A stretch of 60,776 nt of DNA from a virus (Duplodnaviria > Caudoviricetes), in IMG/VR virus record IMGVR_UViG_3300046739_000367, positions 1-60,776 of that record. The stretch is one strand, 5' to 3'. The position numbers were made by a program, and so were the translations under genes. The first letter of the stretch is position 1; every line of letters begins with the position of its first letter. Below, piece by piece: positions 7,433 through 37,699 of this stretch. The notes under the pieces were generated by a model. That model searched no databases. It was not told the origin of the DNA and saw only the letters and a list, made by a program, of their open reading frames with translations.

Positions 7433-9931
7433 ATGCCGATTAGCGTAGGCGAGGTTAATGCAAGCATCCGCTTCGCAATAGCGAGCTCCGAGCTCGATGC
7501 GGCGAAGTCTAAGCTGAAGGAGCTCGCCGACGAATTCAACGCGACCGGTGGAGCGGCGACGATCTCCGGTCAACGCATCCTCGCGACGATGGGTCCGCTA
7601 CAAGAGCGGATTGAAGCCATCCGCATGGATGCGGAGAAGCTCCGGATCGAGATCGCCCAGTACGAGACGTCGACGGGCCTCCGGGCGATCAAGCAGCAGG
7701 CGGATCAGGCGTCTCAGTCGTTCGACCAGATGCAGATGCTCGCGTTGCGCATGGGCGAACGGATGCTCATGCTGTACGCGTTGAAGGCGTCTTTCGACTT
7801 CGTCAAGGGGATCTACGAAGCCGCAGACGCCCTCGTCACTCTGTCGGACAAGACGGGGATGTCGATTACGTACCTGCAACAGCTCCAGGCGACGGGGGTC
7901 GGTACCTCCGAGAGCACGAAGGAGCTGGGCTCTGCGATCGAACACCTTGACAAGAACCTCGAAGAGATGAAGGGTGGAGACGCCCTGAAGGAGATCGGGA
8001 TCACGTTCGGTGACATTTTTAAGATGAATCCGGACCAGCGCTTCGAGCAGGTTGCGTTGAAGATCGCAGCGATTCAGTCGCCTGCGGAACGGGCCCGCTT
8101 GGAGATCCAACTCTTTGGGACGGACGGCATCGATCCCCTGATCATGAAGATCGGGCAGTTGGGGCCGGCACTCACGAAGATGGACACCGCAATGGACGAG
8201 ACGACGGTCCGTGCACTGTCCGACGCGAAACGCTCGTACTCCGAGTTCGGCACGATGCTCGAGGGACTCGGGGCGAAGATGCTGGATACGGCATCGAAGT
8301 CCGTTGCGCTCGCCGCTTCGCCGATCTTCGTCCTCTGGAAAGCGGGCATCCCCGGGCTCATGGACGCGATCAAGAACTCGGATATGTTCGCCGCGAGCCT
8401 TGACCACGTCGCCGACTCCGCACATAAGGTCCCGCCGGTTCCTCCGCTCATGGGTCAGGCGTTCATCGACAGCCTGAAGGTTCAGATCCCCATGACGAAG
8501 GAGCAGACGGCTGCTCTTGACCAGCTCCGGGCGATGGGCGAGCTAACGTACCAGAACGCGGTGAAGGCGACAGCACAGAACCAGATCAGCGAAGCCCAGT
8601 ACAAGAACTACGAGAAGGCGGTCAAGGACGCGGCCGCTGCCGAACGTGCGCACGAAGCGGATATCAAGAAGTCCGTTGAAGCATACGAGCACTATACAAA
8701 GGTCATCGACGAAGTCCTTTCCGCCGGTACGTCCTGGAAGACCACCATCGCCGGGATGAACTCCGAACTTCACGAGCATGTGAAGACGCTCTTGGAAGCT
8801 GGAGTCGGTGAGAAAGCGATCGAAGAATGGACTGGTGCTACCGCAACGCAGACGCATGCGGTCGTCAAGGAACTGCACGACGAAGCGGAAGCCCGTGCTC
8901 TCGTGAGGCGCACCGCTGAGGACGAAGCGAAGGTCCTCGCTCAGCTCGCGATGATCAAGGCCGACTACGAAGCCTCTGACCTCCAGAAGGTCTTCGCGAA
9001 CAACGAGCGAAAGTACCAGGACGCCGTCGCCACCGCCCAGAAGATCGGGATCGTCGACGCGAAGTACTATAACGACCTCGCACGTCTACGCAACGCCGAG
9101 AACGACGCGGCTGAGAAGAACTTGGCGGACCGCGATCAGAACTCTCGGTCGCACTACGTCAAGATGTTGCAGGATGCGATCGACTACTACCAGGCTCTCG
9201 AGATGGACTCGTCAAATCACACAACCGCCGAAATCGCTCGGGCGAAGTTGGAGGTCGACGAGAAGCGGAAGCTCCTCCAGAATTGGAGTCGAGACGCAAC
9301 GACGCTGCTCTCACAGGGGACGAATGCTGCGACCGTCTTCGTCAGCAACTGGCAGGAAGGCCTGATGATGATGGATCAGGGGCTTGACGCCTCGAACATC
9401 AAGGTCCGAGGCCTGACGGGCGAGGTCGAGAGCCTCACCGACGCGATCAAGGAGTTCAACAGGGGGAACTCCATCACGTACGACATCTCGACAGCTAAAG
9501 GAGTCGCCGACCTCCACAAGATGAACCCGAAGCTGCGAGACAACTTGTCGGACAGTGATCTGATGGCCCTCGGTCAACAGGGGTTTACGATCCAGGACCT
9601 CGTCGCCGCAGGCTTCCTCGACTTCAACGCCGGACTCGCCGAGATGTTCGGTCAGACAGACCGGTACACCGGAACTCCGAACCCCGCGATCGACGCGGCA
9701 CTTCAGAAGATCCATGCGGGGACCGCATCGCCGAAGACGCCTCTCGTCACGCCAACGAACAGCCCACTCGCTCCGACGTCTGCAGGAGCCGGAGGTGCTC
9801 AGGTCGGGATGTCGAACACGTTCAACGTGAACGGAACGGCGGACGAAGTCGCACAGAAAATCGCTGACAAGATCAAGCAGCAGCTGATGGCGAAGGTTAC
9901 GCTTACTCGCAAATTCGGGACGGCTTCCTAA
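7433..9931 (+). CDS. tape measure protein
   Basis: 832 aa, helical and Ala-rich, LSDKTGMS..LQ and LFG motifs, follows the chaperone. Confidence 0.9.
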   Translation: MPISVGEVNASIRFAIASSELDAAKSKLKELADEFNATGGAATISGQRILATMGPLQERIEAIRMDAEKLRIEIAQYETSTGLRAIKQQADQASQSFDQMQMLALRMGERMLMLYALKASFDFVKGIYEAADALVTLSDKTGMSITYLQQLQATGVGTSESTKELGSAIEHLDKNLEEMKGGDALKEIGITFGDIFKMNPDQRFEQVALKIAAIQSPAERARLEIQLFGTDGIDPLIMKIGQLGPALTKMDTAMDETTVRALSDAKRSYSEFGTMLEGLGAKMLDTASKSVALAASPIFVLWKAGIPGLMDAIKNSDMFAASLDHVADSAHKVPPVPPLMGQAFIDSLKVQIPMTKEQTAALDQLRAMGELTYQNAVKATAQNQISEAQYKNYEKAVKDAAAAERAHEADIKKSVEAYEHYTKVIDEVLSAGTSWKTTIAGMNSELHEHVKTLLEAGVGEKAIEEWTGATATQTHAVVKELHDEAEARALVRRTAEDEAKVLAQLAMIKADYEASDLQKVFANNERKYQDAVATAQKIGIVDAKYYNDLARLRNAENDAAEKNLADRDQNSRSHYVKMLQDAIDYYQALEMDSSNHTTAEIARAKLEVDEKRKLLQNWSRDATTLLSQGTNAATVFVSNWQEGLMMMDQGLDASNIKVRGLTGEVESLTDAIKEFNRGNSITYDISTAKGVADLHKMNPKLRDNLSDSDLMALGQQGFTIQDLVAAGFLDFNAGLAEMFGQTDRYTGTPNPAIDAALQKIHAGTASPKTPLVTPTNSPLAPTSAGAGGAQVGMSNTFNVNGTADEVAQKIADKIKQQLMAKVTLTRKFGTAS

Positions 9932-12900
9932 TGGCGAAAGAACGTAACATGATCGGGTTCGAACTCGGGACGATCGACGAGTTCAGCATCTTCGCAGCGG
10001 GCTGTTCGCTCGTGAACGATCCTGCTGGAATCACGCCGCGCACGGGCCTGTGGTTCCTGCGGATGGCGCCGACGGCACAGCAATCGACGGTCAACATCGT
10101 TTCGGACGGAACAGTCCTGAACGGGAGCTACGCAGGATCCGGTCACCTGCGGATTCATGTTCGGATGTTTATCCGTATCAATACGTACCCGTCAAGCTCA
10201 CTTCAGTTCGCCGACTTCGGTACGATCTGCAACCTGTTCATTGGTACGACCGGGCAGTTGGCGGTCAACTTCACTGGGCATGCTGCAACGGCTGGTCCGA
10301 CGGTACCGATCGACGGTGCATGGCACCAGATCGATCTCGACTTCGACATGGACGGGAACACGCCGGCGACCTCGACATTCTCAGTCCAACTCGACGGCGG
10401 ATCGCTGACGACAGTCACCCAGGTGAACGCCGGTCCGTTCGGTTGCGGCGATATCAACCTGGGTATCAACACGAACAACACGTTCTCGATCGACGTAGAC
10501 GACTACGTGATGTTCGCCGCGAACCTGACAGACGCTGCAAGCACGCTTGTACTCCCGACGCAGAACCACATCGTCCCGGTACCGATCGTTACGCAAGGAG
10601 CGACGAATCAGTGGACAGGCAACTATACCGCGGTCGAGGACATTCCGCCGTCGACATCCCCCGACACGTTTCAGGCTGGAACTGCTGTTGGCCAAAAGGT
10701 CACGTGGCAGAAGGATCTGCACCAGTGGAACGACATCACGAATCTCGTCGCCGGGATCAAGATGTATACGTACGTCCGGATGCAGGGGAGCGGAACGAGT
10801 TCGGTCCAGGTCATAATCAATAACGTCATCGTCAACACGATCACGAACTTCCCGTTGATCCCAGCGGGGTACCCGACAGGAGCGAGAGTCCGAGGCGGCT
10901 TCGACTGGAACACGTACGATCCGGTTACATACGACGGCATCGAGCTCGGACTCATCCAGAACGGTACGCTCCAGGCGAACGCCGGCGGTATCTTCGCCGA
11001 GGTCCTGTGCGATGTCACAGCCACCCCGAACGTTAAGTTCGACACGCTCACTCCGAACAGTGGGTCGACGGCGGGAGGGACAGTCGTTACGTTCACTGGT
11101 ACGTTCTCCCGGAAGACCGGAGGGATCTCCTTCGGGGGATCTCCGTTCACAATTACGAACATCTCCGTAACGCAGATCGTAGGGACGACGTCAGGGCATG
11201 CTGCAGGAGTCGTCGACGTCACCGCGTACCAGACAACGGTCTTCCCTCAGGGGTATACCTACGTCAGTGGGATCGCCGGGATCGTCTTCGTCGAGCCGAA
11301 CGCCCGGTTCAATCCTGGGCACTCGGCGGAACGCCGTCTGGACAATACGCCGGGGCAGTTCAAGTTCGAGACGACGGCGGCTCTTGCTGCTGGGTCTCCG
11401 TTGAAGGTTGTTGGGCAAGGCTCTACGCAAATTGTCAACGGCGTAGCCGTCCGCAGCACGCGCATCGTCGAGGCGAAGCGTACGAGCCTAAAGACCTCGA
11501 TCGAGGGGACGGATCGGCAGTACTACCTGAACCGCCGACTCGTCTACGGCACGTGGGTAAACACCGCCGCAGACCAGGTCCTCACGGCAATCCTCGCGAC
11601 CTTCGCCCCAGACTTCAGCCCCGGCGGGATTCAGGGCGGGATGCCGTCGATCAGCGTTCAGTTCGCACGTGACGCAAACGTCTCCGAAGCGTTCTCGAAG
11701 ATCATGCAGGGGATCGGCGGACACTGGTTCATGGACCTGAACGGTGTCATGCACGCGTATATCGGAGTTCCGATCGGCATCGCCGCCCCTGACACGCTCG
11801 ACAACAATAATCGGAGCATCCAGTACGACCCGCAGATCCAGTGCGTAACCGATCTCTCGCAGATCCGGAATCGTGTATACGTACGTGGTCGTGGCAACCC
11901 GGCAGCGGTTACAACAGGGACTCCCTTCTTCAACGCCTGGTGGAACGTCAACGCCCCGCTCTTCGACTTTACTCTCGCACCGAAAGGCGCGGAGACGAAT
12001 GCGGGGGTGAACGTCCTAACGCTCAGCGGCTGGCGTCCGTCCTACGGCGGGTTCTACACCGGACCTAGCGGGCACGGTCAGTTCTCCTTCGCCACGAACT
12101 CCGGGATCTGGCGGAACTTCGCGAATACGCAGGCGATCGTTCCCGGGAATGGGTTCGACTACGTCGGAACGTTTCCGGGGTATGGCCCTGCGAGTATTAC
12201 GAACATCCACGCCCTAATCGCGATCGAGAACCCACACGATCCCCGGATCACCGGCTTCACCCTCTACCGGATGCGTCAGGCCGTCGACATGTCCACGTGG
12301 TACCTCGTCGGGACGATCGCAATCGATCCGACTGGAGCGAACCAGTACACGTTCCACGATGACATGGATGAAGCTTCGCTTCTGGCCGGAGGCGTTCCGG
12401 TTCCTCAGCCGAACACGACCGGCGACACCTCTCAGACGATCTACGTCATGCAGGAGGATACGGTCGCCCAGGGCAAGCTTGCAGCGATTGAAGGAGGCGA
12501 CGGAATTCACGAGTACCAGATCAATGACCCGTCGATCCAGACGACAGCGGATGCTACGTCGCGAGCCCTCGCAGAGCTCGCACTCTTCGCGAACCCGATC
12601 GTCACGTTCGACTACTACACCCGTGACCAGAAGTCGCTGCCAGGAGCGATCGTCCACATCAACCTGCCGGACATCGGGCCAGTCGGCGACTACCAGATTC
12701 AACAGGTGACGGTCGACCAGGTCAAGAACTTCAGGCGCGGAATCGACTTCCTCGTGGAACGGTACCATGTCATCGCATCAAGCGTTCGATTCACTATTGA
12801 TGATCTTTTCCGCCGCGTGCTCCTTACCGATACCCCTTCGTCGGCGTCGACGTCGGGGAACGTGGCGTCGGTTATTCCGCAGCCAGCTGCACCGACGACT

Positions 12901-13125
12901 GGGACAGTCACGCATATCGGTGAGGGTGTTACGGGAACCGTAAACGGGATTAATACGCTGTTCACGACACTGGCTCCCTACACGGCGAACAAACTCGCGG
13001 TGTACCGAAACGGTGTTCGCCAACAGCGGACTGCGGACTACACGGAGACGACGCCAGCATCCGGAACCTTCACCTTCGTAACCGCACCGACAACAGGAGA
13101 CGTTATCACGGTGGACTATGTTTAA
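9931..13125 (+). CDS. multidomain tail-tip / baseplate hub protein (lectin-like N-terminus, IPT/TIG domain, hub)
   Basis: TPNSGSTAGGTVVTFTG (IPT); DLSQIRNRVYVRG and hub-like C-terminal segment. Confidence 0.7.
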   Translation: MAKERNMIGFELGTIDEFSIFAAGCSLVNDPAGITPRTGLWFLRMAPTAQQSTVNIVSDGTVLNGSYAGSGHLRIHVRMFIRINTYPSSSLQFADFGTICNLFIGTTGQLAVNFTGHAATAGPTVPIDGAWHQIDLDFDMDGNTPATSTFSVQLDGGSLTTVTQVNAGPFGCGDINLGINTNNTFSIDVDDYVMFAANLTDAASTLVLPTQNHIVPVPIVTQGATNQWTGNYTAVEDIPPSTSPDTFQAGTAVGQKVTWQKDLHQWNDITNLVAGIKMYTYVRMQGSGTSSVQVIINNVIVNTITNFPLIPAGYPTGARVRGGFDWNTYDPVTYDGIELGLIQNGTLQANAGGIFAEVLCDVTATPNVKFDTLTPNSGSTAGGTVVTFTGTFSRKTGGISFGGSPFTITNISVTQIVGTTSGHAAGVVDVTAYQTTVFPQGYTYVSGIAGIVFVEPNARFNPGHSAERRLDNTPGQFKFETTAALAAGSPLKVVGQGSTQIVNGVAVRSTRIVEAKRTSLKTSIEGTDRQYYLNRRLVYGTWVNTAADQVLTAILATFAPDFSPGGIQGGMPSISVQFARDANVSEAFSKIMQGIGGHWFMDLNGVMHAYIGVPIGIAAPDTLDNNNRSIQYDPQIQCVTDLSQIRNRVYVRGRGNPAAVTTGTPFFNAWWNVNAPLFDFTLAPKGAETNAGVNVLTLSGWRPSYGGFYTGPSGHGQFSFATNSGIWRNFANTQAIVPGNGFDYVGTFPGYGPASITNIHALIAIENPHDPRITGFTLYRMRQAVDMSTWYLVGTIAIDPTGANQYTFHDDMDEASLLAGGVPVPQPNTTGDTSQTIYVMQEDTVAQGKLAAIEGGDGIHEYQINDPSIQTTADATSRALAELALFANPIVTFDYYTRDQKSLPGAIVHINLPDIGPVGDYQIQQVTVDQVKNFRRGIDFLVERYHVIASSVRFTIDDLFRRVLLTDTPSSASTSGNVASVIPQPAAPTTGTVTHIGEGVTGTVNGINTLFTTLAPYTANKLAVYRNGVRQQRTADYTETTPASGTFTFVTAPTTGDVITVDYV

Positions 13126-15013
13126 CAAACAGAAGCTCACGCGCCTGTACTTCCTCCACTTCCCGTGGATCGTTGTCGCGGTCCTCATGTGCTTCCTTCT
13201 CGGAGGCGCTGCTGCGCAGACTCTGATCAACGGGAACCAGATCCAATCGCATACAGTGAAGGCCCTCCAGCTGGACACTCCGGGCGTAACCGCTGCAACT
13301 TACGGCGACGCTACGCACGTCGGACAGTTTGCCGTAGCGGCAGATGGTCGACTGACCTCGGCAACGAACGTCGCGATCACGGGAGGCGGCGGAGGAACTG
13401 GAACGCCTGGAGCCCTCGTTCTGATCTCCCAGATCGTGACGAGCGGGTCGCAAGCGACGGTAGACTTCGCGAGTATTCCAGCAACGTACCGTAACCTCAT
13501 CGTCATGTGGCAGGCGGCGGATACGCAGGCGGGAACGAATTCCGTTTCGTTGAATATGAAGGTTAACGCCGACGGCACCGCTGCGAATTACACCGGCGTG
13601 TTCCGGTACGGCTCCCAGAACACGGCAACGTTCGGGTCGAACCAGGCACCGACTACATCAGGTATCCAGGTAGGGTTCATGCCTCAATCTGGGAACACGA
13701 GTATGCTCGGGTCGGGGGAGGTCAGCATCTTCGACTATACTAACACGTCGTTCCACAAGCGCGTGAACGGGTGGGCGAATGGTGAAGACGGTACAACTAA
13801 CGGTACAGAATGGTCGTTCAATTCCCGCTGGAAGAATACGGCCGCAGTCAACGAGCTCACGTTCCTCGCCGGAGGCACCGCCTTCCAGAACGGCACGGTG
13901 TTCTCCCTCTACGGCGTGACGTCTTCGACTTCCAGCTCGCCGACTAACGGGGCTCTCGTCCTTCTCGAGCAGCACACGGCAAGTGCGAGTGCGACAGTCG
14001 ACTTCACTCAGTTCTCGACGACCTACGACGAGTACATTATTGAGTACATGAACGTCGTCCCTGCGACGAACAACGTTTCGTTCGAACTCTTGATGTCGAC
14101 GAACGGAGGGTCGTCTTACGACACGACAGCCGGGCACTACAAGTACGCGAGTTACATCACGAACGATACAGGTGCGTTCTCGACGAACTCGGTCGGGAGT
14201 AATAGCGCCGCATTCATCCAGATGGCAGCGAACCTGAGCAATCTTGCCGACGGCACATCCGGTACGATGCGGCTCTGGAATCCCCAGCAGACGGCAAGCA
14301 ACCACGCGATCGACGGAAACTTCAACTACCTGAACAACGACACGAACCGCTATCGCGGGATGATGACCGGGTACTTCGCCCAGACGACAGCGTATAATGC
14401 CGTTCGCTTCGTAATGTCGGCGGGGAACGTTTCGAGCGGTACGTTCCGGATGTACGGCGTCTCGAACGTTCTGGGCTCAGGAGGAAGTGCGGCGGGGAAG
14501 GTTCTCCTCGAACAGCATACTGCGAGTACGAGCACGTCGCTGGACTTCACTACGTGTATCTCGTCGTCCTACGACTCGTACGAGTTCGAGTTCCTGAACG
14601 TTCTACCGGCGACGACTGGTTCCACCCTTAACCTCCGGATGTCGACGGATGGCGGGGTCACGTACGACGCGGGTGCGAATTACCGACACGCGTACACGTT
14701 CTCAAACACGAACAACGCGGGAGGCACGAGCGGTAGTAACGGTGAGACCGGTATGGTGTTCATGGGCGGAATCACTAACACCGCATCCGACGGAGGAGGT
14801 AGCGGGTACCTCCGGATGTTCAATCCCGCGAGTACGAACACGAGACAGTTCGAATTCGGAAGCTCGTTCCGATTCACCGACACGTTCTGGTACCACATTC
14901 ACGGTGCTGGGCAGTGGACGAATACTACGACCGCCGCCAACGCAGTTCGCTTTCTTATGAGCGCGGGAAACATCACTAGCGGTACAATCCGCTGTTACGG
15001 AATGGGCAAATGA
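13118..15013 (+). CDS. tail fibre / receptor-binding protein with three tandem ~180-aa beta domains and an N-terminal signal-peptide-like segment
   Basis: Three repeats of VL(I/L)xQ...(V/L)DF...Y...GT...YG(V/M); fibre-like TYGDAT..V..DGRLT motif. Confidence 0.7.
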   Translation: MFNKQKLTRLYFLHFPWIVVAVLMCFLLGGAAAQTLINGNQIQSHTVKALQLDTPGVTAATYGDATHVGQFAVAADGRLTSATNVAITGGGGGTGTPGALVLISQIVTSGSQATVDFASIPATYRNLIVMWQAADTQAGTNSVSLNMKVNADGTAANYTGVFRYGSQNTATFGSNQAPTTSGIQVGFMPQSGNTSMLGSGEVSIFDYTNTSFHKRVNGWANGEDGTTNGTEWSFNSRWKNTAAVNELTFLAGGTAFQNGTVFSLYGVTSSTSSSPTNGALVLLEQHTASASATVDFTQFSTTYDEYIIEYMNVVPATNNVSFELLMSTNGGSSYDTTAGHYKYASYITNDTGAFSTNSVGSNSAAFIQMAANLSNLADGTSGTMRLWNPQQTASNHAIDGNFNYLNNDTNRYRGMMTGYFAQTTAYNAVRFVMSAGNVSSGTFRMYGVSNVLGSGGSAAGKVLLEQHTASTSTSLDFTTCISSSYDSYEFEFLNVLPATTGSTLNLRMSTDGGVTYDAGANYRHAYTFSNTNNAGGTSGSNGETGMVFMGGITNTASDGGGSGYLRMFNPASTNTRQFEFGSSFRFTDTFWYHIHGAGQWTNTTTAANAVRFLMSAGNITSGTIRCYGMGK

Positions 15014-15528
15014 TCCCGGAGGTCCGCGGAATGTCGCACGAAGCACTCGGTGAACTGGTCGACGAACTCGATCGGAAGTATCAAGCTGGTCATCAGCGGC
15101 TCCGTCAGGAGCTGGAGGAACAGGGACAAAAGATCGAGTCGAACTACACCTTCTTCCGAGATCGTTCGGAACAGGACCGCCGTCGGATGTCCGAACTGGC
15201 AAAGGACATCGAAACTCTCGGGAGGGCCCCCGTGAATGTTGACAAGATCATCTTCTCACCCCGTGTGGTATTTACGATAGTCGTTTCTCTGTTGTCCATC
15301 TACGGGTTCTTCCTAGCGTCGACTTCCAGCATGAGGACAGACATCCACGACCTCGCGCAGAAGTACGACTCGCAGCAAATCGTGAATAAGGCCCACACGG
15401 AGCTTCAGGACATGCAGCAGCAGTCTCTGCAGACTGACGTCGCCGACCTGAAACACCAGCTCCAACAACAGCAGATCGAAATCGCGAACCTGAAGACTCA
15501 GCTCGCGCAGAAGGGAGTATCCCGATGA
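15010..15528 (+). CDS. membrane-anchored coiled-coil protein (lysis module)
   Basis: One TM segment (VVFTIVVSLLSIYGFFLA) flanked by coiled coils. Confidence 0.55.
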   Translation: MIPEVRGMSHEALGELVDELDRKYQAGHQRLRQELEEQGQKIESNYTFFRDRSEQDRRRMSELAKDIETLGRAPVNVDKIIFSPRVVFTIVVSLLSIYGFFLASTSSMRTDIHDLAQKYDSQQIVNKAHTELQDMQQQSLQTDVADLKHQLQQQQIEIANLKTQLAQKGVSR

Positions 15529-15728
15529 CCATCGAAACCGGAAACGCCCTCGGACTGGGATGCCCTCCTGGCTCCGCCACCCAGCTCACGTCCCTCGTCA
15601 ACCTGATCCAGGCGAAGAACGTCGGGCTTATGACCCGGACTCAATGCGTAGTCGCTGCAAAGCGGATTCTCGCCGCGTACAACGACTTCAAACTGGTCCC
15701 GTCGATCATCGAGGAGTGCAAGAAGTGA
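15525..15728 (+). CDS. hypothetical protein
   Basis: ATGA/GTGA overlaps on both sides. Confidence 0.5.
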   Translation: MTIETGNALGLGCPPGSATQLTSLVNLIQAKNVGLMTRTQCVVAAKRILAAYNDFKLVPSIIEECKK

Positions 15729-16183
15729 TCGCTGACGACCTCATCCGGGAGGCCCGGAGATTCCTCGACGTTCGGGAGACTGATCCGAACTGTGGGCTCT
15801 GGGTCGAGTTCTTCCAGAGGTTCTGTAACGGAACGTCCGGGACGAGTTGGTGTGCGGACTTCGTCTCGACTCTGCTGAACCTCGTATACTACGGGATTCC
15901 GCCGCTACCGCGGACCCAGTCGACGATTACGATGCTTCGCGTCGCCCAGCTGAAGAAGATGGACGTGACGGAGCCGATGGTCGGGGACCTCTTCTTCATG
16001 GTCACGCTTCCGACGAAGGTCCCGCATCACGTTGGAATCGTGACAGGCGTCTCCCCACTCACAGGCATCGCCGGGAATACCTCACCGAATGGGATGTCCT
16101 CGAATGGAACGGGAGTGTATGAACACCCGCTTACGGCGGATCCGGCGACGTACGTATTCGTCCGTTTGCCGGAGGTGAACTAG
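15725..16183 (+). CDS. endolysin, CHAP-type cysteine amidase/peptidase
   Basis: SWCADFVS ... GDL ... HVGIV ... IAGNTS; GTG start at 15725. Confidence 0.8.
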   Translation: MIADDLIREARRFLDVRETDPNCGLWVEFFQRFCNGTSGTSWCADFVSTLLNLVYYGIPPLPRTQSTITMLRVAQLKKMDVTEPMVGDLFFMVTLPTKVPHHVGIVTGVSPLTGIAGNTSPNGMSSNGTGVYEHPLTADPATYVFVRLPEVN

Positions 16184-18036
16184 TGCCTGAGATCAATGGC
16201 CTTGGGCGGCTCGGGGCAGGAGTTGCCGGTGGAACCATCTCAATCGACAACGGTGCAATTGCATCCGGCGGCGGCGCCTGCTGGATGGACGATGACAACC
16301 TCGTGTTCGGCGGGCCGAGCGCTGGTGGCGGCTGGTACTTTCGCAAGTATACGGTTTCGACAAAGACGTTCACGGACATCGACCCGAACGGACCGAACTT
16401 CGTGGCTGCGGGAGGTGGTCGCTACGCGTTTCAAGGAGCGGCTCTTGTTACGAACGGCTGGCCATTCACTCCGGCGACGTCACGCATGTCCCTCTGCATC
16501 ACAGACGGTCGCGGAGCGGCGAATCCTGAAGGACTGGTTGCCCTGTGCACGGACGGGTCGTGTACGAGATTCAACGTATACGCTCCCGGAATCCCTGAGC
16601 CGATCGACAGCGTGCCCGGTGCAGCCTACAACCTCTGCCTCGTGCGCCCCGGCGCCTACGTCTGGGACGGAGGAGAGTACGGGTATCACGTCGACCTCCC
16701 CATCGCATGTACTCGTCGACGAGTCGTTACCCTCAACGGCGTCGACTGGATCGTAGGCTGGTCCAACGCCCTCGGCGTGTTCGCCGCGCCCAACGGGTCA
16801 AAGGACGGATACATCATCGTCCCCTCCCCGGGGCTCGCCTACTACCACCAGGCCCGCGTCGTAGGCGGCCGCCTCCTCATCGCCTGGTCTACCACCCAAG
16901 GCGAAGCCCTGGGGACGAACGCCATCGTCGCGGTCGACATGTCGAAGCCGCTGCAACCTCTGGTTCCGACTCCAGTCGTTCCGACGTTCTCGTTCAACCA
17001 CCCAGTGATAGTCGCGCCGTTCAAGGATCCGCAGGGTGCGACGGCCGCTCCGATGGAAGTCGTCGTCAACCAGAATCAGCAGACGAAGACGAGACCCGCC
17101 TTCGGTGCGGAGGACTCGATCCTGCAGGTCCTACCCGGACAGCTCCAAGGAGTATACAGTGAGAATACCGCTTCCCCGGAAACTCCGCTCACAATTGCGC
17201 AGGACCTCCGGACGCGACTGGTCCTATGTCACGACGCGCAGTCTATCTGGACGCCGCCTCCAGGTCTACGTCCATACGACATACCATGCGTGGAACTGTA
17301 CCTGCTTGTCGGCGAGTCGGCGGCGTCAGCGTACACTCGCTGGGTCCACAACGTCGACGCAGTCCTGAACGCCTGGCGCTACTCGACCATCGCCGTCGTC
17401 CCGATGTTCTACTGTGAGGGCGGAGCCCCTCCGAACGAGACGTTCACGGTCGCCCAGGTCTGCGACGCTCTTCAGTACCTCTCGCAGATCGTGAACTCGT
17501 CTTCCCGGATCACCGTGATCCTCCCGTTCGAATACCTTCGGGCGAACGGCATCACCGGACACCCGGAACTACAACAGGCATTTGACAATCTCGAAGCCGC
17601 TGCAAAGGCGGCTGGTCTCGCAACGCTTCCGCCGATCTCGTCAACCTTCAAGCAACTGAGGAGAGTGAAGATGCAACCGTTCTCCGGCTTCGTCAAGATC
17701 AACCAGTGGGGCGCTCCGGAGCTCTACTACACGGGCGTGAACCCGAACGACCCGTCGAAGGCCGTTTACTTCAATCGGCCGAACGAACCGAATCAGGGCG
17801 GACCGTGGGAGCTCATCAACTTCACTCCTCAGGGGAACCTGTGGGCGGCGAAGTATGACGCCGCAAGCGTCTGGCTCTCCATCCAGAACAACGGAACGCT
17901 GCAGAGCCGGCCTGGTGGAAACAACCCCGGCGCCTTCGAACTCTTCCAGATCCGTCAGGAAGACGACAGTCAGCGGATCATCCTCTACCGCGACGACCTG
18001 ATCGGCTGCGAACTCTTGGTCGAGGTGAAGCAGTGA
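16183..18036 (+). CDS. multidomain hypothetical protein with a fascin/beta-trefoil-like C-terminus
   Basis: 617 aa; C-terminal GPWELINF / GAFELFQI repeats. Confidence 0.5.
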   Translation: MPEINGLGRLGAGVAGGTISIDNGAIASGGGACWMDDDNLVFGGPSAGGGWYFRKYTVSTKTFTDIDPNGPNFVAAGGGRYAFQGAALVTNGWPFTPATSRMSLCITDGRGAANPEGLVALCTDGSCTRFNVYAPGIPEPIDSVPGAAYNLCLVRPGAYVWDGGEYGYHVDLPIACTRRRVVTLNGVDWIVGWSNALGVFAAPNGSKDGYIIVPSPGLAYYHQARVVGGRLLIAWSTTQGEALGTNAIVAVDMSKPLQPLVPTPVVPTFSFNHPVIVAPFKDPQGATAAPMEVVVNQNQQTKTRPAFGAEDSILQVLPGQLQGVYSENTASPETPLTIAQDLRTRLVLCHDAQSIWTPPPGLRPYDIPCVELYLLVGESAASAYTRWVHNVDAVLNAWRYSTIAVVPMFYCEGGAPPNETFTVAQVCDALQYLSQIVNSSSRITVILPFEYLRANGITGHPELQQAFDNLEAAAKAAGLATLPPISSTFKQLRRVKMQPFSGFVKINQWGAPELYYTGVNPNDPSKAVYFNRPNEPNQGGPWELINFTPQGNLWAAKYDAASVWLSIQNNGTLQSRPGGNNPGAFELFQIRQEDDSQRIILYRDDLIGCELLVEVKQ

Positions 18037-19100
18037 TCACCTTCCCCAAGCTCATTCGATACGGAGGTTCGCCCACGCCGACGAATCCTCCGACACGGGA
18101 CGAGATCCTGAACCTGCAAGGGTCGTTCCAGGGGATCTGGTGCGATACCTCATACAATCAACCCGGATCTCGTTGGCGAGGACGCACTCCGCTGTTCGAC
18201 CCGGCAATCGGATGGTTCGCGCCGTCGGACAGGAAGAACGCATACGCTGCGAAGCGAGCTGCGGGAGATAAGCTCGTCGTTCTGGCCGTTACCGGACAGT
18301 ACCACGAGAACGACCCGTCGAACTTCTACGAGCAAGTTCCTGGAAAGGACTTCTTCCGTTCCGGCCTGAACGAACTCGTCGACCTGATCCTCGAAGCCGT
18401 CCAGCAGGAGGGCATGCGTGGAGTCCAGCTCTGGTGCGGTGGAGACGGACTCGGCGACGGAGTGAACTACAACGACTTCGGCGGAATGACCTACGGCTGG
18501 CAATGGCTCATGAAGAACTTCCCCGCAATCTACAAGGGGCTCGAGAGCGTGTCGCCGTGGATCATCTGGCAGGCCGGAGCAGATGGCGTGATCCCCGGAT
18601 GGGCCGGGCCGGAAAACAACTGGCACCGGGTGAATCAGTGGCTCACGTTCGCGCGAGGGATCATCGGCGACGGTGGGCACCTCGGCACGTACGAGTCCAG
18701 CGGGTACTGGGCATGGTCCGGAGAGACGAACGACTACTCCCACGACGAAGGGATGTTGGTCGATCAGATCTGCTTCGAGTTCCCGTATCCGATGGGACCG
18801 CCGACGTCGACTCCGCCGGCTGACTTCTGTAACCAGTCGGATGAAGTCCGCGGACCCTTCGATCAGGTCTGGCAGATCTCGAAGCGGGCACTCGGCCCGA
18901 ACTGGAACCGGCCGCCGGACGAACCCGTCTGCGACGACGGCGGGAAGTCGGGTGGAATTGGCCCCGGGAAGTACGGTCCGCGTTCGCTCCGTGGACAGGA
19001 GTACGACACGTACGGGCACGTTCGAAACTTCATCGCGGATGGCGTCACCCAGCAACGCCGTTCGTATCTTTCACAAATCGGTTGGGGCCTCGTAGGCTAG
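18033..19100 (+). CDS. hypothetical protein, possibly glycoside-hydrolase-like
   Basis: 355 aa, aromatic/Gly/acidic-rich, translationally coupled. Confidence 0.45.
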   Translation: MITFPKLIRYGGSPTPTNPPTRDEILNLQGSFQGIWCDTSYNQPGSRWRGRTPLFDPAIGWFAPSDRKNAYAAKRAAGDKLVVLAVTGQYHENDPSNFYEQVPGKDFFRSGLNELVDLILEAVQQEGMRGVQLWCGGDGLGDGVNYNDFGGMTYGWQWLMKNFPAIYKGLESVSPWIIWQAGADGVIPGWAGPENNWHRVNQWLTFARGIIGDGGHLGTYESSGYWAWSGETNDYSHDEGMLVDQICFEFPYPMGPPTSTPPADFCNQSDEVRGPFDQVWQISKRALGPNWNRPPDEPVCDDGGKSGGIGPGKYGPRSLRGQEYDTYGHVRNFIADGVTQQRRSYLSQIGWGLVG

Positions 19101-19285: not shown

Positions 19286-19857
19286 TGATCACACTCTTGC
19301 TTCTTACGGTTCTGCAAACGGCGCCGACGTGCGACGCCTCGCTTCAGGCCCACGTGTATCACCCTCAGCGTCTGAAGCAACTGCAGGAGTGCGTTGCAGT
19401 GTCCGGGACGATCGTCGACGCGACGAAGGGCGTACACAAGAACGGGCTACGCCATGAAGCCGACGGGGATACCCACGGATGGCTGAAGGTCGACCCCCAG
19501 TTCGAGAACCTCCTCAACGACGGGAACAAGTCGGCGGAAGGCGGGAACCTCGTGTTCGAGATCGTCTGCATGTACTCCGTACACCAGGCCGATGCGAAGA
19601 GCGCCTGTAAAGGGTACAAGTCGAAGATTAAGGTTCCTCCGGTTGGATCACAAGTCGTCATTACGGGCGTACTCGTCCAGGATCAGGAACACGCCCAGTG
19701 GAACGAGATACACCCGGTAACGTCTATCACGGTAGTGAAGGCCGCAGCCGGCCCGTGGAAACATCGTCTCGAAGACATCGCCTTAGGGGCAGTTGCCGTG
19801 ACGATCATCGTAGCGTGCGTTTACAGCGGCAGTTGTGCCGGTCTCACTGGAGGATAG
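19285..19857 (+). CDS. exported OB-fold-like protein with a C-terminal TM segment
   Basis: Signal-like N-terminus, EADGDTH and WNEIHPVTSI motifs, four Cys in the exported domain. Confidence 0.55.
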   Translation: MITLLLLTVLQTAPTCDASLQAHVYHPQRLKQLQECVAVSGTIVDATKGVHKNGLRHEADGDTHGWLKVDPQFENLLNDGNKSAEGGNLVFEIVCMYSVHQADAKSACKGYKSKIKVPPVGSQVVITGVLVQDQEHAQWNEIHPVTSITVVKAAAGPWKHRLEDIALGAVAVTIIVACVYSGSCAGLTGG

Positions 19858-20145
19858 ATGCTTACAAAGTTCCTGACGTCGCTCGGGTTCACTCGAGACT
19901 GGTTCGGGTGGTTGTGGCTCCGGATCATCTCCGCAGCCATGCTCATCGACAGCCTCGGACCGGATGTCGTCACCAACACCCTGAACTACATCGGCGTGCC
20001 ATGTTCGCCGACTACGGTTCATCGCGTAATGTTCGCGGCGGTCGCTCTGTTGTGGATCGCCGGGAAGCAAGCACACAGCGGACTGAAGAGCTCTGCGGAG
20101 ATGAACAGCGTCACCCCACCATCACAGAAGGAGACAGGAGTATGA
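19858..20145 (+). CDS. putative holin
   Basis: 95 aa, two hydrophobic segments, hydrophilic tail, lysis region. Confidence 0.5.
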   Translation: MLTKFLTSLGFTRDWFGWLWLRIISAAMLIDSLGPDVVTNTLNYIGVPCSPTTVHRVMFAAVALLWIAGKQAHSGLKSSAEMNSVTPPSQKETGV

Positions 20146-20543
20146 AGATGCCTATTCGCACCCTCGTGTTCGTCGCTCTGGCGACTTTCGCCGTCAGCTG
20201 TACGAAGACGCCCCCGGTCGTCAACCCACCGGCTCCGGGCGTGCTCACACCAGCGCAGGTCACGGAGATTCAGAAAGGACTCGACTCCGTCCAGGCGATC
20301 GCCGAGCTCGTGTCGGTCGCGTATCCTCAGGTCGTGACGGCGAAGGACGTTCAGGTGATCAACAAGTTCCACGATGCGGCAACGACGACGTTGACGGCAG
20401 CCGCAAGTGGGTGGAAGACGACACTTGACACGGCTCTCGACCAGGTCATCGCGAACCTCTCAGCGAATGCGAAGCTGAAGTTGACACCGTACTTCAACGT
20501 CGTGAGAGCCGCGGTCGACAACTTCGTTCCGGGACTTCCGTGA
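20142..20543 (+). CDS. lipoprotein (possible spanin-like)
   Basis: MKMPIRTLVFVALATFAVS|C lipobox-like; AGGAG RBS. Confidence 0.6.
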   Translation: MKMPIRTLVFVALATFAVSCTKTPPVVNPPAPGVLTPAQVTEIQKGLDSVQAIAELVSVAYPQVVTAKDVQVINKFHDAATTTLTAAASGWKTTLDTALDQVIANLSANAKLKLTPYFNVVRAAVDNFVPGLP

Positions 20544-25506: not shown

Positions 25507-25961
25507 TTCGCCTCCTTCGGCTTGAAGAGCGAGATCGTGTCCGTCCCAGCGGACAGGAACTCGTATACAGCCAGGGCTTCCCGTCGAGGGTCGGATCCGA
25601 GGGCGGCTTGCAACGCGATCCTCGCCAGCGGCGGGAGTACACGATCCATCTTGTAGACGACGTGTGTCTTCCCGTTGCGGCTCCGCCAGCCGTCGTGCAG
25701 CTGAAGCTGAAAGCGTTCGCCGATGATCGAGCGGGCCCCGACTCCAGAGAGGTCGACGAAGTCTCCGAAGTTGATCTCGTCGAAGTCACAGAGGAGTTCG
25801 TCCTCCGCTCCTTTGTAGAGCGTGCACCCGACTGCTTCTGCAATCGCCTTCAGGTCTTCGAGACTGTTCACCTTGTACCCTTTCCCCTTCTCGAACTTGT
25901 CGACTGTGTCCACGTATCCCTCCTTAAGCGGCAATGCCAAGGTACTTCTCCAGTTCATCAC
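25503..25961 (-). CDS. minimal AEP-like primase candidate
   Basis: LLCDFD (motif I), SRNGKTHVV (motif II), GSD (motif III); between the polymerase and helicase genes. Confidence 0.45.
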   Translation of the reverse strand: MMNWRSTLALPLKEGYVDTVDKFEKGKGYKVNSLEDLKAIAEAVGCTLYKGAEDELLCDFDEINFGDFVDLSGVGARSIIGERFQLQLHDGWRSRNGKTHVVYKMDRVLPPLARIALQAALGSDPRREALAVYEFLSAGTDTISLFKPKEAK

Positions 25962-28896: not shown

Positions 28897-29478
28897 TTAC
28901 ACCTGCCCTACGATATGGAGGAATTCCATGCGAGCAGCCGGGTTCAGCAGGAAGACGCCTTTCATCACGTCCGTGACGACGTCTCCATCGGACTCGACCC
29001 CGCGGAAGCGCATGCACCCGTGAACCCCGGAGAGGATGACGCCGACGCCCTTCGGCTCCAGGACACGGTCAAGGGATTCGGCGACGGCTGCGGCGAGGTC
29101 CTCCTGGAGCATCGGCTGCCAGAGTTGCTCTTCGACGACGCGGGCGAGCTTGGAGATTCCCAGCGTCTTCTTGTGTGGGATGTACCCGACGAAGCACTTG
29201 ATCTCGACGGGCTGAAGGTGGTGCGGGCAGATCGCGACGACCTTGTGATTGCGGAGCACGACGAGATCCGAGCTCCGTGAGGGAAACGTCGCCCAGTTGT
29301 TCGGCTGGGGAGTCAGCATCTCGGAGAACATTCGCGCTACGCGCTCCGGCGTTCCCACGTAATTCGGGTCTTTCAGGTCGCAGCCCATTCCTTCGAGGAG
29401 GGTGCGAACGCCCTTCGCCATCTTCACGATGTCGCGGTGAGGCGGATGTGGATTGTCAGTTGCACGACGATTACGCAT
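28897..29478 (-). CDS. folE: GTP cyclohydrolase I
   Basis: TPERVARM, CPHHL, GISKLAR, LQE, HGCM..RG; start moved to the ATG at 29478. Confidence 0.93.
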   Translation of the reverse strand: MRNRRATDNPHPPHRDIVKMAKGVRTLLEGMGCDLKDPNYVGTPERVARMFSEMLTPQPNNWATFPSRSSDLVVLRNHKVVAICPHHLQPVEIKCFVGYIPHKKTLGISKLARVVEEQLWQPMLQEDLAAAVAESLDRVLEPKGVGVILSGVHGCMRFRGVESDGDVVTDVMKGVFLLNPAARMEFLHIVGQV

Positions 29479-30410: not shown

Positions 30411-30586
30411 GGTTTCACCCGGACGACTACACGAAGCGGCTTCCAGACTTCAAGACCACCTCCGCGTCGGAGACACTCGAGTCGGGCTTCATGCTCCGCC
30501 CAGTAGAGCTGAAGGTTCGAGTCTCCCTGATGCCAGCTGGCAGAAGGAATGTGGTAGATCGTCCACATGATCTTGGTATCTTCCAC
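30407..30586 (-). CDS. hypothetical protein (59 aa; not in the ORF track)
   Basis: GTG start overlapping the queE stop; reads EDTKIMWTIYHIPS...RVKP and fills the gap. Confidence 0.45.
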   Translation of the reverse strand: MEDTKIMWTIYHIPSASWHQGDSNLQLYWAEHEARLECLRRGGGLEVWKPLRVVVRVKP

Positions 30587-37618: not shown

Positions 37619-37660
37619 CTGTGAATGCTCCTTGTAGATCAAAGCCTTCGTCAGCTCAAC

Positions 37661-37687: not shown

Positions 37688-37699
37688 TGTCGCCACGTG

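What the first reader, a model, noticed from the sequence alone, without database searches (positions are those of the whole stretch)
13118..15013. Tail-fibre-like protein that begins with a cleavable Sec signal peptide
Seen: the N-terminus MFNKQKLTR-(hydrophobic FPWIVVAVLMCFLLGG)-AAA|QT precedes a fibre-like segment and three tandem ~180-aa beta domains. The gene overlaps the tail-tip gene by 8 nt. Known: tailed-phage virions assemble in the cytoplasm and their fibres normally lack signal peptides. Inference: the adhesin is exported and either attaches to virions after or during lysis, or is displayed on the infected cell (receptor masking, superinfection exclusion). Either would be an unusual assembly route.
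Basis: partly seen in the sequence, partly recalled or inferred. Interest (0 to 1): 0.72.

Follow-up and report, generated by a model that had tools for sequence, protein, structure and literature searches.

The report
Phage tail fibre with export signal
A complete soil-type phage genome encodes, right after its tail-tip gene, a lectin-like tail fibre that starts with a conserved secretion signal, so it probably leaves the cytoplasm and joins the virus particle only when the cell envelope breaks, an unusual assembly route for a tailed phage.

Summary
ORF 13118-15013 (631 aa) overlaps the tail-tip gene by 8 nt (ATGTTTAA) and the next, lysis-associated gene by 4 nt (ATGA). It has a positive n-region, a hydrophobic core, GG-AAA|Q, one fibre repeat and three tandem ~180-aa beta-sandwich domains.

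The window is a complete 60.8-kb siphophage genome. All six homologs that share the conserved motif after the signal keep a hydrophobic, positively charged N-terminus. Its sequence has diverged: 15% identity, against 72% in the next 20 residues.

Across 282 family proteins, signal-bearing members are cysteine-rich. They carry a specific Cys pair (odds ratio 47). 41 of 49 have an even number of Cys in the mature part, which points to folding outside the cytoplasm. The target has exactly this pair (C480, C626).

A 3:3 complex model docks the post-cleavage N-terminus (residues 34-43) on the C-terminal Ig-like domain of the tail-tip protein (score 0.87, best control 0.00). In other phages that domain and the lectin domain lie in one polypeptide.

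Best reading, at about 0.45: a Sec-exported distal fibre that attaches to the tail tip at or after lysis. Export, cleavage and the assembly route are inferred, not shown. I had no SignalP, no proteomics and no host. It is a new variant of a known kind.

The parts
9931..13125 (+). Tail-tip protein (1064 aa), the proposed docking partner. Its last ~89 residues (12856-13122) form an Ig-like domain; the predicted contact residues 1026-1058 lie at 13006-13104.
   Evidence: It follows the tape-measure gene with a 1-nt overlap. TIG domain, E 1.4e-4. The C-terminus is homologous to N-terminal parts of signal-less fibres P0023 (E 7e-19), P0114 (6e-17) and P0016 (1e-11). Interface.
13118..13216 (+). Predicted Sec/SPase I signal peptide, residues 1-33. 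n-region MFNKQKLTR (+3), h-region LYFLHFPWIVVAVLMCFLLGG, c-region AAA, predicted cut before Q34.
   Evidence: Conserved in kind but not in sequence in 6 of 6 motif-sharing homologs. 2 of the 3 residue changes between strains fall here.
13217..13246 (+). Conserved mature N-terminus QTLINGNQIQ (residues 34-43), the predicted docking strand.
   Evidence: 72% mean pairwise identity over the first 20 residues from the motif in six homologs. All partner contacts in the complex model fall on residues 34-43.
13271..13381 (+). One fibre repeat unit (GVTAATYGDATHVGQFAVAADGRLTSATNV and flanks).
   Evidence: The same unit occurs in 12-34 matched stretches in giant homologs P0101, P0102, P0121 and P0127. 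It sits at the very N-terminus of signal-less relatives P0249, P0231 and P0240.
13382..13405 (+). Glycine-rich linker (GGGGGTGT).
   Evidence: Sequence. pLDDT below 50 in the model.
13406..13918 (+). Beta-sandwich domain D1 (residues ~97-267).
   Evidence: HMM domain 81-267.
13940..14464 (+). Beta-sandwich domain D2 (residues 275-449), phrog_14820.
14474..15010 (+). Beta-sandwich domain D3 (residues 453-631). It holds the only two Cys of the mature protein, C480 (14555-14557) and C626 (14993-14995).
   Evidence: pLDDT about 96. Laminin-G/galectin-like fold. The same fold occurs in 148 viral models at E<=1e-3, some named tail fibre. Cys positions. Cys-pair statistics.
15010..15528 (+). Downstream single-pass membrane protein with coiled coils (172 aa), lysis-associated. 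It overlaps the target by ATGA.
   Evidence: TM segment at 86-104. Weak PHROG hits to holin (1.8e-4) and Rz-like spanin (0.003). Overlap.
15560..16183 (+). CHAP/NlpC-P60-like endolysin candidate. The true start may lie near 15725.
   Evidence: Pfam CHAP 0.003 and NLPC_P60 0.008, both below the curated cut-offs. PHROG endolysin families 6e-4 to 1e-3.

Best explanation
The gene encodes the distal, sugar-binding part of the phage's tail fibre, made as a precursor with a cleavable Sec signal peptide.

Proposed sequence of events:
1. The gene is translated late, coupled to the tail-tip gene upstream and to a lysis-associated membrane protein downstream.
2. The n/h/c signal (residues 1-33) sends the chain through SecYEG. 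Signal peptidase I cuts after AAA and exposes Q34.
3. The protein folds outside the cytoplasm. A disulfide C480-C626 probably staples the first and last strands of the terminal lectin-like domain.
4. The new N-terminus QTLINGNQIQ is the docking element. It binds the C-terminal Ig-like domain of the tail-tip protein as a 3:3 assembly.
5. The particle is built in the cytoplasm, so docking can happen only once the lysis proteins open the inner membrane, or after lysis in the lysate.

Shown: the ORF and its coupling, the signal-like anatomy, its conservation, purifying selection, the domain fold, and the family-wide link between signal and cysteines.

Modelled: the docking.

Inferred: export (my odds about 0.8), cleavage (about 0.65), and joining the virion at or after lysis (about 0.55 given export).
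For: 1. Anatomy. Net +3 n-region, 12-21-residue hydrophobic core, GG helix breakers, A at -3 and -1, Q at +1.

2. Conservation of kind, not sequence. Six homologs share the motif T[LQ]I.G.QI. Each has a 22-34-residue leader with 1-4 K/R and at most 1 D/E in the first ten residues, and a 12-mer of mean hydropathy 2.09 or more. Leader identity is 15%, against 72% for the next 20 residues.

3. Strain variant L002. 100 nt changes but 3 residue changes, 2 of them in the leader (T8A; A31V, which keeps an allowed -3 residue).

4. Family-wide cysteine signature, 282 non-redundant proteins. Signal and Cys pair 32; signal and no pair 14; no signal and pair 11; neither 225. Odds ratio 47, Fisher p 5e-22. 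Cys content is 1.41% against 0.46%. Proteins with no Cys: 0 of 46 against 50 of 236.

5. Matched pairs. Each signal-bearing member was matched to its nearest signal-less relative. The pair is present only in the signal-bearing member in 26 pairs, only in the other in 1, and the state is the same in 18 (p 4e-7).

6. Cys parity. The mature part has an even Cys count in 41 of 49 signal-bearing members (p 2e-6). Among signal-less members with Cys, 82 are even and 110 odd. The target's mature part has exactly the two paired Cys.

7. Q at +1. A small residue followed by Q comes just after the core in 41 of 49 signal-bearing members, against 65 of 245 in a like window of signal-less ones.

8. Virion link. 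The complex model scores 0.87, best of 3 controls 0.00. The three runs agree in at least 100% of their contacts and partner pLDDT is at least 80. In the tool's calibration the mark was reached by 51 of 78 solved complexes and 2 of 108 mismatched pairs. Contacts fall only on residues 34-43 of the target and 1026-1058 of the tail tip. No solved relative of either part was detectable by sequence.

9. Fused forms. P0023, P0114 and P0016 carry the tail-tip C-terminal domain and the lectin domain in one chain. The tail tip here stops at ...VDYV, exactly where P0023 continues.

10. Recurrence. Signal-bearing family members sit in tail modules of other IMG/VR phages: L012, L022 and L056, with L029 likely (its TMP call rests on size alone). 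In L085 the one neighbour that matched was a head-closure protein.

11. One transcription unit. There are no promoter-like sites on either strand and no plus-strand terminator-like sites between 7000 and 21000.
Against: - No dedicated predictor (SignalP, DeepTMHMM) was available. All signal calls come from my own hydropathy and charge rule.
- The leader is 33 residues, the longest in the family (median 20, range 11-33). Its hydrophobic stretch is long enough to be an uncleaved membrane anchor.
- P0004 and P0006 lack a clean A-x-A just before the motif.
- In IMG/VR loci only 4 of 66 family members scored as signal-bearing, against 20 of 643 other ORFs, so phage-borne cases are a small minority.
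- The tree-based independent-pairs test of signal against Cys pair was underpowered. It found 11 pairs on supported branches: 2.5 went the same way, 0.1 the other way and 8.5 were unchanged (median p 0.5). Part of the association may therefore reflect cellular versus phage origin or shared descent.
- The complex job (3+3 chains, no alignments) is unlike the tool's calibration, and 7 of 44 blind neighbour pairs also passed it.
- There is no Shine-Dalgarno motif at a useful distance before ATG 13118.
- No mechanism is known by which a periplasmic fibre would efficiently find cytoplasmic particles.
- The host is unknown. Genome scans gave one distant hit only.
- I could not read the model's coordinates, so the C480-C626 distance is unchecked.
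Confidence: 0.45

Rival explanations
1. The protein is exported but is not a virion part. It works in the envelope of the infected cell. There its lectin domains bind the phage's own glycan receptor or a precursor of it. That blocks superinfection, or stops progeny from sticking to debris, by the same logic as T5 Llp or phi80 Cor, which are encoded beside receptor-binding genes.
For: All the evidence for export applies here too. The mature protein has no separate N-terminal adaptor domain; it begins directly with a fibre repeat. The fold is lectin-like. The gene is coupled to lysis genes. P. gingivalis phages are reported to encode secreted proteins of unknown function that follow the Q rule (PMC10367356, passages read). 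That Llp and Cor lie next to receptor-binding genes is recalled, not checked here.
Against: The conserved post-signal motif is predicted to dock on the tail-tip C-terminal domain (0.87 against 0.00). Other phages have that domain and the lectin domain in one chain. The gene sits in the late structural block with overlapping stop and start codons, not as a separately controlled early or moron gene. No other fibre gene with this domain exists in the genome; the own-genome search found 1 match. A periplasmic lectin cannot reach surface glycans without a further secretion step, and no T9SS C-terminal domain was found.
Confidence: 0.2
2. The hydrophobic N-terminus does not lead to productive export of the virion copy. 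There are two versions. In one, the leader is retained on the assembled fibre as a membrane-active or assembly element at the junction of tail tip and fibre. In the other, a second start (M24 here) gives a cytoplasmic isoform that is the one built into particles, while the long form is a minor by-product or has a separate role.
For: The hydrophobic stretch is TM-like in length (19-mer mean hydropathy 2.3). An in-frame ATG lies at codon 24, and P0004 has a Met two residues before the motif. Cytoplasmic assembly is the rule for tailed phages (established knowledge). The docking strand starts right after the leader, so a short N-terminal stub might be tolerated.
Against: A structural element should be conserved in sequence, but the leaders share 15% identity. 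No internal start is conserved across the six homologs. There is no Shine-Dalgarno motif before M24. Synonymous changes at codons 4 and 9 in the strain variant show that the region upstream of M24 is coding. Retention does not explain the Cys-pair, parity and content signature of signal-bearing members, because signal-less fibres also end up outside the cell yet lack it. By established knowledge, such a hydrophobic N-terminus would be taken by SRP or SecA.
Confidence: 0.2
3. Annotation artefact: the true start lies downstream of the hydrophobic segment, and the apparent signal is untranslated sequence.
For: No Shine-Dalgarno motif lies at a useful distance before ATG 13118. The next possible start after M24 is a GTG at codon 47.
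Against: A start at codon 47 would remove the QTLINGNQIQ motif, which is conserved at protein level in six homologs. The frame shows third-position substitutions from codon 4 on. The ATGTTTAA overlap fits translational coupling. Leaders with the same properties precede the motif in all six homologs.
Confidence: 0.03

Closest known systems
Side or central tail fibres encoded after the J-like tail-tip gene of lambda-like siphophages (Stf-type fibres)
   Same: Gene position directly after the tail-tip gene. A thin N-terminal part followed by distal beta-sandwich receptor-binding domains. BFVD models with the same domain fold carry names such as 'Tail fiber protein' and 'Stf side tail fibre-repeat-2'.
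   Different: Those fibres have no signal peptide and are attached in the cytoplasm. Here a Sec-type leader precedes the docking motif, and the distal domain carries a Cys pair typical of signal-bearing members.
phrog_14820 / the C-terminal domain family found in Pelagibacter phages HTVC010P, HTVC019P and HTVC034P
   Same: Sequence family: phrog_14820 at E 1.6e-47. 30-33% identity to hypothetical proteins of these pelagiphages.
   Different: The family has no assigned function. Most members lack a signal: 236 of 282 by my rule.
Filamentous-phage adsorption protein pIII (Inoviridae)
   Same: A receptor-binding virion protein made with a Sec signal peptide, disulfide-bonded outside the cytoplasm and joined to the particle at the envelope (recalled knowledge, not tested here).
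   Different: Inoviruses are extruded through the membrane and have no cytoplasmic particle. There is no sequence or fold relation. Here the particle is a tailed capsid with terminase, portal and tape measure.
Sec-exported or signal-anchor-release endolysins (for example the KMV45 type)
   Same: A late phage protein that uses the host Sec system through an N-terminal n/h region (PMC7696170, passages read).
   Different: Those are enzymes of the lysis pathway, not structural or adhesin proteins.
Phage-encoded receptor blockers and envelope morons next to tail genes (T5 Llp, phi80/N15 Cor, lambda Lom)
   Same: Exported phage proteins encoded beside receptor-binding genes (recalled). A T5 superinfection-exclusion paper appeared only in a search listing (PMC9586334).
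   Different: Those are small lipoproteins or outer-membrane barrels, unrelated in fold, mostly with their own expression control. The target is a 631-aa fibre-like protein in the late block, with a predicted dock on the tail tip.
Secreted proteins of P. gingivalis phages that obey the Bacteroidetes Q rule
   Same: Phage genes with SPase I signals that expose an N-terminal Gln (PMC10367356, passages; Q rule: PMC5837995, abstract).
   Different: Those five genes are of unknown function and were not described as tail fibres in the text I read. Their list is in a supplement I could not open. The present phage uses Shine-Dalgarno motifs at 25 of 53 presumed starts. From recalled knowledge that fits Bacteroidota poorly, so the host phylum stays open.

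Membership tests
Sec/signal peptidase I signal peptide | Positively charged n-region | tested here: met
   K4, K6 and R9, with no acidic residue in the first 10 residues.
Sec/signal peptidase I signal peptide | Uninterrupted hydrophobic h-region | tested here: met
   WIVVAVLMCFLL, 12-mer mean hydropathy 3.09. The whole stretch 10-30 is long, and its 19-mer scores 2.3, so an uncleaved anchor is not excluded.
Sec/signal peptidase I signal peptide | c-region with small residues at -3 and -1 after a helix breaker | tested here: met
   GG-AAA|Q. The strain variant has VAA|Q.
Sec/signal peptidase I signal peptide | Kept in homologs while the sequence drifts | tested here: met
   6 of 6 motif-sharing homologs. 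15% identity in the leader against 72% after it.
Sec/signal peptidase I signal peptide | Call by a trained predictor, and experimental export and cleavage | not testable with these tools
   No SignalP or DeepTMHMM at hand, and no proteomics.
Lipoprotein (SPase II) signal | Lipobox [LVI][ASTVI][GAS]C | tested here: not met
   The only leader Cys is C25, preceded by V-L-M. M at -1 does not fit. The lipobox pattern is recalled.
Tat signal | Twin-arginine motif in the n-region | tested here: not met
   No RR in residues 1-33.
Type IX secretion cargo | C-terminal sorting domain (TIGR04183-type) | tested here: not met
   0 NCBIfam families at E<=0.1 and 0 Pfam families at E<=0.01.
Tailed-phage tail fibre / receptor-binding protein | Encoded in the tail module next to the tail-tip gene | tested here: met
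   Order: tape measure, tail tip, target, with overlapping stops and starts.
Tailed-phage tail fibre / receptor-binding protein | Distal domain shared with known fibres | tested here: met
   phrog_14820 at E 1.6e-47. 148 BFVD models at E<=1e-3, some named tail fibre. 226 IMG/VR stretches encode the domain.
Tailed-phage tail fibre / receptor-binding protein | Physical attachment to the tail | tested here: inconclusive
   The model supports a 3:3 dock of residues 34-43 on tail-tip residues 1026-1058: score 0.87, best control 0.00, runs agree, partner pLDDT at least 80. Fused forms exist in other phages. A model is not a measurement.
Tailed-phage tail fibre / receptor-binding protein | Presence in purified virions; needed for adsorption | not testable with these tools
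   Uncultured phage, host unknown.

The most novel reading that the evidence does not exclude
Some tailed phages finish their particles outside the cytoplasm. The distal receptor-binding fibre is Sec-exported and oxidatively folded. Signal-peptide cleavage creates the very N-terminus that docks on the tail tip. Only exported, processed fibre can therefore attach, and it does so when the lysis proteins open the envelope. The same solution recurs in several unrelated fibre N-termini (L012, L022, L056, L085 and the target's group), which would make it an overlooked general assembly route and not a one-off.
Probability: 0.33. Interest if true: 0.85.

Novelty: new variant of a known kind. Interest (0 to 1): 0.72.

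Why it matters
Textbook tailed-phage assembly is wholly cytoplasmic. A fibre that must pass through the Sec system would add an extracytoplasmic step that depends on the timing of lysis.

It would explain why some fibre families carry paired cysteines. It would also bear on annotation, because fibres with signals are easily dismissed as host adhesins or morons. Recombinant production of receptor-binding proteins would be affected too, since such fibres may need periplasmic expression to fold. So would host-range engineering.

The hypothesis is directly testable, because the predicted mature N-terminus (Gln34) and the docking surface are specified.

Tried and rejected
- Lipoprotein, Tat and T9SS routes: motifs absent.
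- Read-through of the tail-tip stop, or a frameshift fusing the tail tip to the target. The frame after the stop gives an Arg-rich off-frame product (ORF 13165-13494). Substitutions between strains fall on third positions of the target's own frame.
- Related loci. With the full-length alignment, the viral scan found only the same phage, the genome scan found nothing, and the metagenome scan found the same contig.
- The domain alignment in genome contigs gave one Rhizomicrobium MAG locus, which is no host clue.
Names of homologs: the database was switched off. No tRNA genes.
- The terminase is only about 33% identical to those of actinobacteriophages. The tail-tip end is 37.5% identical to a Cellulophaga phage tail protein over 10% of its length. 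Neither decides the host.
- The ESM Atlas gave nothing usable for the 617-aa downstream protein.
- Sequence search of solved structures gave only chance-level hits for the lectin domain and for the tail-tip end.
- The tail-tip Ig-like domain was not found upstream of other signal-bearing family members.
- The tree-based independent-pairs test was underpowered.
- The first complex job, with an alignment for the partner, failed technically and was resent with the plain sequence.
- Six literature searches found no report of a Sec signal on a tailed-phage fibre. Candidate papers read by passage dealt with lysis proteins or eCIS cargo.
Full report
**What is there**

The window is a complete virus record of 60,776 bp with direct terminal repeats. 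It carries:
- a large terminase, a portal and a major-tail-protein-like gene;
- an 832-aa tape-measure-sized gene and a 1064-aa tail-tip gene with a TIG domain;
- on the other strand, a replication block with DNA polymerase A, a ligase and a preQ0 pathway.

The reported ORF runs from 13118 to 15013 on the + strand and encodes 631 aa. Its ATG overlaps the tail-tip stop in ATGTTTAA, an 8-nt overlap. Its TGA overlaps the ATG of the next gene in ATGA. Between 7000 and 21000 there are no promoter-like sites on either strand, and the three terminator-like sites all lie on the minus strand. The tape measure, tail tip, target and following genes therefore look like one late unit.

The next genes are:
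- a 172-aa single-pass membrane protein with coiled coils and weak holin and spanin matches;
- a 67-aa ORF;
- a CHAP/NlpC-P60-like endolysin candidate;
- two large ORFs with no family match.

**The protein**

Residues 1-33 read MFNKQKLTR / LYFLHFPWIVVAVLMCFLLGG / AAA, followed by QTLINGNQIQ. After that come one fibre repeat unit, a glycine linker and three tandem beta-sandwich domains. The domain comparisons gave D1-D2 E 3e-10, D2-D3 E 5e-33, and D1-D3 only 0.019.

Pfam and NCBIfam find nothing in the protein. PHROGs places it in phrog_14820, of unknown function, at E 1.6e-47.

The AF2 model is confident for D3 (pLDDT about 96) and D2 (about 85), moderate for D1 and poor for residues 1-100. 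Foldseek matches tandem laminin-G and galectin-type sandwiches in the PDB (2wjs at 3.3e-6, galectin-8 at 6e-4). It also matches 148 predicted viral proteins at E<=1e-3, a few of them named tail fibre, Stf repeat or collagen repeat.

The C-terminal domain is very common. 15,485 cluster representatives match at E<=1e-3, and 226 stretches in IMG/VR encode it. Among isolated phages it appeared only in pelagiphages and one uncultured Caudoviricetes record, annotated as hypothetical.

**Is the start right, and is the leader real?**

A strain variant of the same phage (L002) differs at 100 of 1896 nt but at only 3 residues. Nearly all changes are at third codon positions, including codons 4 and 9, which lie upstream of the only internal Met (M24). 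Two of the three residue changes are in the leader: T8A, and A31V, which keeps an allowed -3 residue.

The next possible start after M24 is a GTG at codon 47. That start would delete the conserved motif described below.

No Shine-Dalgarno motif lies at a useful distance before 13118, although 25 of 53 presumed starts in this genome have one (background 17%). The overlapping stop and start fits translational coupling.

Six homologs share the motif T[LQ]I.G.QI: P0001, P0003, P0004, P0006, P0107 and P0205. A seventh, P0092, is a near-copy of P0003. In all six a leader of 22-34 residues precedes the motif. Each leader has 1-4 K/R and at most one D/E in the first ten residues, and a 12-mer of mean hydropathy of at least 2.09. 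The leaders share 15% identity, right-anchored and ungapped. The first 20 residues from the motif share 72%.

This pattern is the mark of a signal peptide: the physical properties are conserved while the sequence is free to drift. A structural element of the particle would be expected to keep its sequence.

Signal-less relatives (P0249, P0231, P0240) begin with the same fibre unit directly at their N-terminus. The leader is therefore an add-on to an otherwise ordinary fibre start.

**An independent line: cysteines**

I built an HMM of the domain and found 333 domain copies. Two columns were of interest: the C of DFTTC and the C of IRCYG. Both are Cys in 43 copies, only the first in 24, only the second in 16, and neither in 250.

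At protein level there are 282 non-redundant sequences:

| | Cys pair | no pair |
|---|---|---|
| signal-like leader | 32 | 14 |
| no leader | 11 | 225 |

The odds ratio is 47 and Fisher p is 5e-22. Cys content is 1.41% in leader-bearing proteins against 0.46% in the rest. Proteins without any Cys number 0 of 46 against 50 of 236.

The predicted mature parts of signal-bearing members have an even number of Cys in 41 of 49 (p 2e-6). Signal-less members with Cys split 82 even to 110 odd.

Both kinds of fibre end up outside the cell. The difference therefore points to where they fold: signal-bearing members behave like proteins that form disulfides in an oxidising compartment.

The target fits this pattern. 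Its three Cys are C25, inside the leader, plus C480 and C626 at exactly the paired columns.

Controls for shared descent gave mixed results:
- On a FastTree of the last domain, with the two columns removed, the signal state changes at least 32 times and the pair state at least 18 times. The independent-pairs test on supported branches has only 11 pairs: 2.5 go the same way, 0.1 the other way and 8.5 are unchanged (median p 0.5). The direction is right, but the test is underpowered.
- Each signal-bearing member was matched one-to-one with its most similar signal-less relative (median 49% identity). The pair is present only in the signal-bearing member in 26 cases, only in the other in 1, and the state is equal in 18 (p 4e-7). 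These pairs are not strictly independent.
- Part of the signal could reflect cellular versus phage origin of the metagenomic proteins, because I could not see their contigs.

**Q at +1**

A small residue followed by Q comes right after the hydrophobic core in 41 of 49 signal-bearing members, against 65 of 245 in a like window of signal-less ones. Q is the first strongly polar residue after the core in 31 of 49.

The Q rule is described as specific to Bacteroidetes (PMC5837995, abstract). P. gingivalis phages are reported to encode five secreted proteins of unknown function that obey it (PMC10367356, passages).

From recalled knowledge, the frequent Shine-Dalgarno motifs here fit Bacteroidota poorly. 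I leave the host open.

**Is it a virion part?**

Two results say yes.

First, the last ~140 residues of the tail-tip protein are homologous to the N-terminal parts of signal-less family members: P0023 (E 7e-19), P0114 (6e-17) and P0016 (1e-11). In those proteins an Ig-like domain ending in ...VDYV is followed in the same chain by a collagen-like or other linker and then the lectin domain. Here the tail-tip protein stops exactly at ...VDYV, and the lectin part is a separate gene that begins with the leader. This is a fused-versus-split pattern, and it links the two gene products.

Second, I ran a 3:3 complex model of tail-tip residues 900-1064 with target residues 34-110:
- The median score was 0.87, and the best of three controls was 0.00.
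- The three runs agree in at least 100% of their contacts, and partner pLDDT is at least 80.
- In the tool's calibration the mark was reached by 51 of 78 solved complexes and 2 of 108 mismatched pairs.
- All confident contacts of the target lie on residues 34-38, 40-41 and 43. Those of the tail tip lie on 1026-1036 and 1050-1058.

The caveats are these. The job is unlike the calibration, being six chains without alignments. Seven of 44 blind neighbour pairs also passed. A model is not a measurement. On the other hand, no solved relative of either part is detectable by sequence, so a pass from memory is less likely.

The docking element is thus the conserved stretch that becomes the N-terminus after the predicted cut.

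**Recurrence**

Among 66 non-redundant family members in IMG/VR loci other than the target's own phage, 4 scored as signal-bearing. A fifth, in L029, has an uncharged leader. The background is 20 of 643 other ORFs of 150 aa or more. Phage-borne cases are therefore a small minority and are not enriched over background.

Their neighbourhoods are as follows:
- L012: the protein lies between a tape measure and a J-like 1536-aa gene.
- L022: it follows a J-like 991-aa gene.
- L056: it follows a tape measure and a 949-aa host-specificity protein.
- L029: it follows a 1035-aa gene called tape-measure-like from size alone and a 744-aa gene that matched no PHROG family.
- L085: the one neighbour that matched was a head-closure protein, so this is a structural block, not a proven tail module.

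In L056 and L085 the signal precedes N-terminal motifs that I recall as typical fibre starts. That is recollection, not a test.

**How it most likely works**

The best reading is that the protein is exported through Sec and cut before Q34. It folds, with a disulfide in D3, outside the cytoplasm. It docks by its new N-terminus on the tail-tip Ig-like domain once the lysis proteins breach the inner membrane, or in the lysate. Classic in-vitro fibre attachment shows that such late joining is chemically feasible; that point is recalled.

My odds are:
- export, about 0.8;
- cleavage, about 0.65;
- late joining given export, about 0.55;
- the whole chain, about 0.45.

The rivals are:
- an exported envelope-acting lectin that masks the receptor or blocks debris (0.2);
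- a retained leader, or a cytoplasmic isoform from M24 (0.2);
- a wrong start (0.03).

**Limits**

- I had no trained signal predictor, no access to the model's coordinates and no contigs for the closest homologs.
- The host is unknown, and there are no expression or proteomic data.
- The signal calls rest on my own rule: an uncharged 10-mer of mean hydropathy of at least 2.3 starting within residues 2-22, preceded by a net positive charge. I removed one obvious false positive, P0054, by eye from some counts.
- The literature statement rests on six full-text searches and on passages of five papers. Supplements were closed.

Noticed in passing
window 20148-20543 (+): A 131-aa ORF inside the longer ORF 19698-20543 starts MPIRTLVFVALATFAVSC|TKTPPVVNPP. 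It looks like a lipoprotein signal followed by a proline-rich stretch, and a strong Shine-Dalgarno motif (GAAGGAGACAGGAG) lies upstream. It could be an outer-membrane spanin placed away from the lysis genes, or a receptor-blocking lipoprotein. No family match.
   Followed up: partly
window 28897-29949, 30586-31506, 31525-32160, 36932-37696 (all -): A full preQ0 pathway: GTP cyclohydrolase I, a radical-SAM QueE-like protein (below the Pfam cut-off), the PTPS/QueD type and QueC. This suggests 7-deazaguanine modification of the phage DNA.
   Followed up: partly
window 25924-28611 (-): A DNA polymerase A with an N-terminal uracil-DNA-glycosylase-superfamily domain in one 894-aa ORF.
   Followed up: no
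window 16183-18036 and 18033-19100 (+): Two large ORFs (617 and 355 aa) directly after the endolysin candidate. They overlap at stop and start and have no Pfam, PHROG, NCBIfam or Atlas match. They may be further tail or envelope-acting proteins.
   Followed up: partly
window 15525-15728 and 15560-16183 (+): A 67-aa ORF overlaps the first ~56 codons of the 207-aa endolysin ORF in another frame. The CHAP/NlpC-like match starts near residue 90, so the endolysin probably starts near 15725.
   Followed up: no
L029:8087-8899, 8866-9516, 13863-14252, 16274-16585: This IMG/VR phage locus has four consecutive or nearby ORFs with short signal-like leaders, most ending in A-Q. Two of them lie directly after the tail genes. 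Secreted proteins may be common in phages of this unknown host group.
   Followed up: no
proteins P0101, P0102, P0121, P0127: Giant proteins of 1614-3049 aa carry 12-34 copies of the target's single fibre repeat unit. P0101 and P0127 start with signal peptides ending in A-Q. The repeat is thus shared with what look like secreted cellular adhesins.
   Followed up: no
window 12814-13122 (tail-tip residues 961-1063): The tail-tip C-terminal domain is 37.5% identical to part of a structural/tail protein of Cellulophaga phage phi17:2 (E 9e-6). That is the only hit of the tail-tip protein among isolated phages.
   Followed up: no
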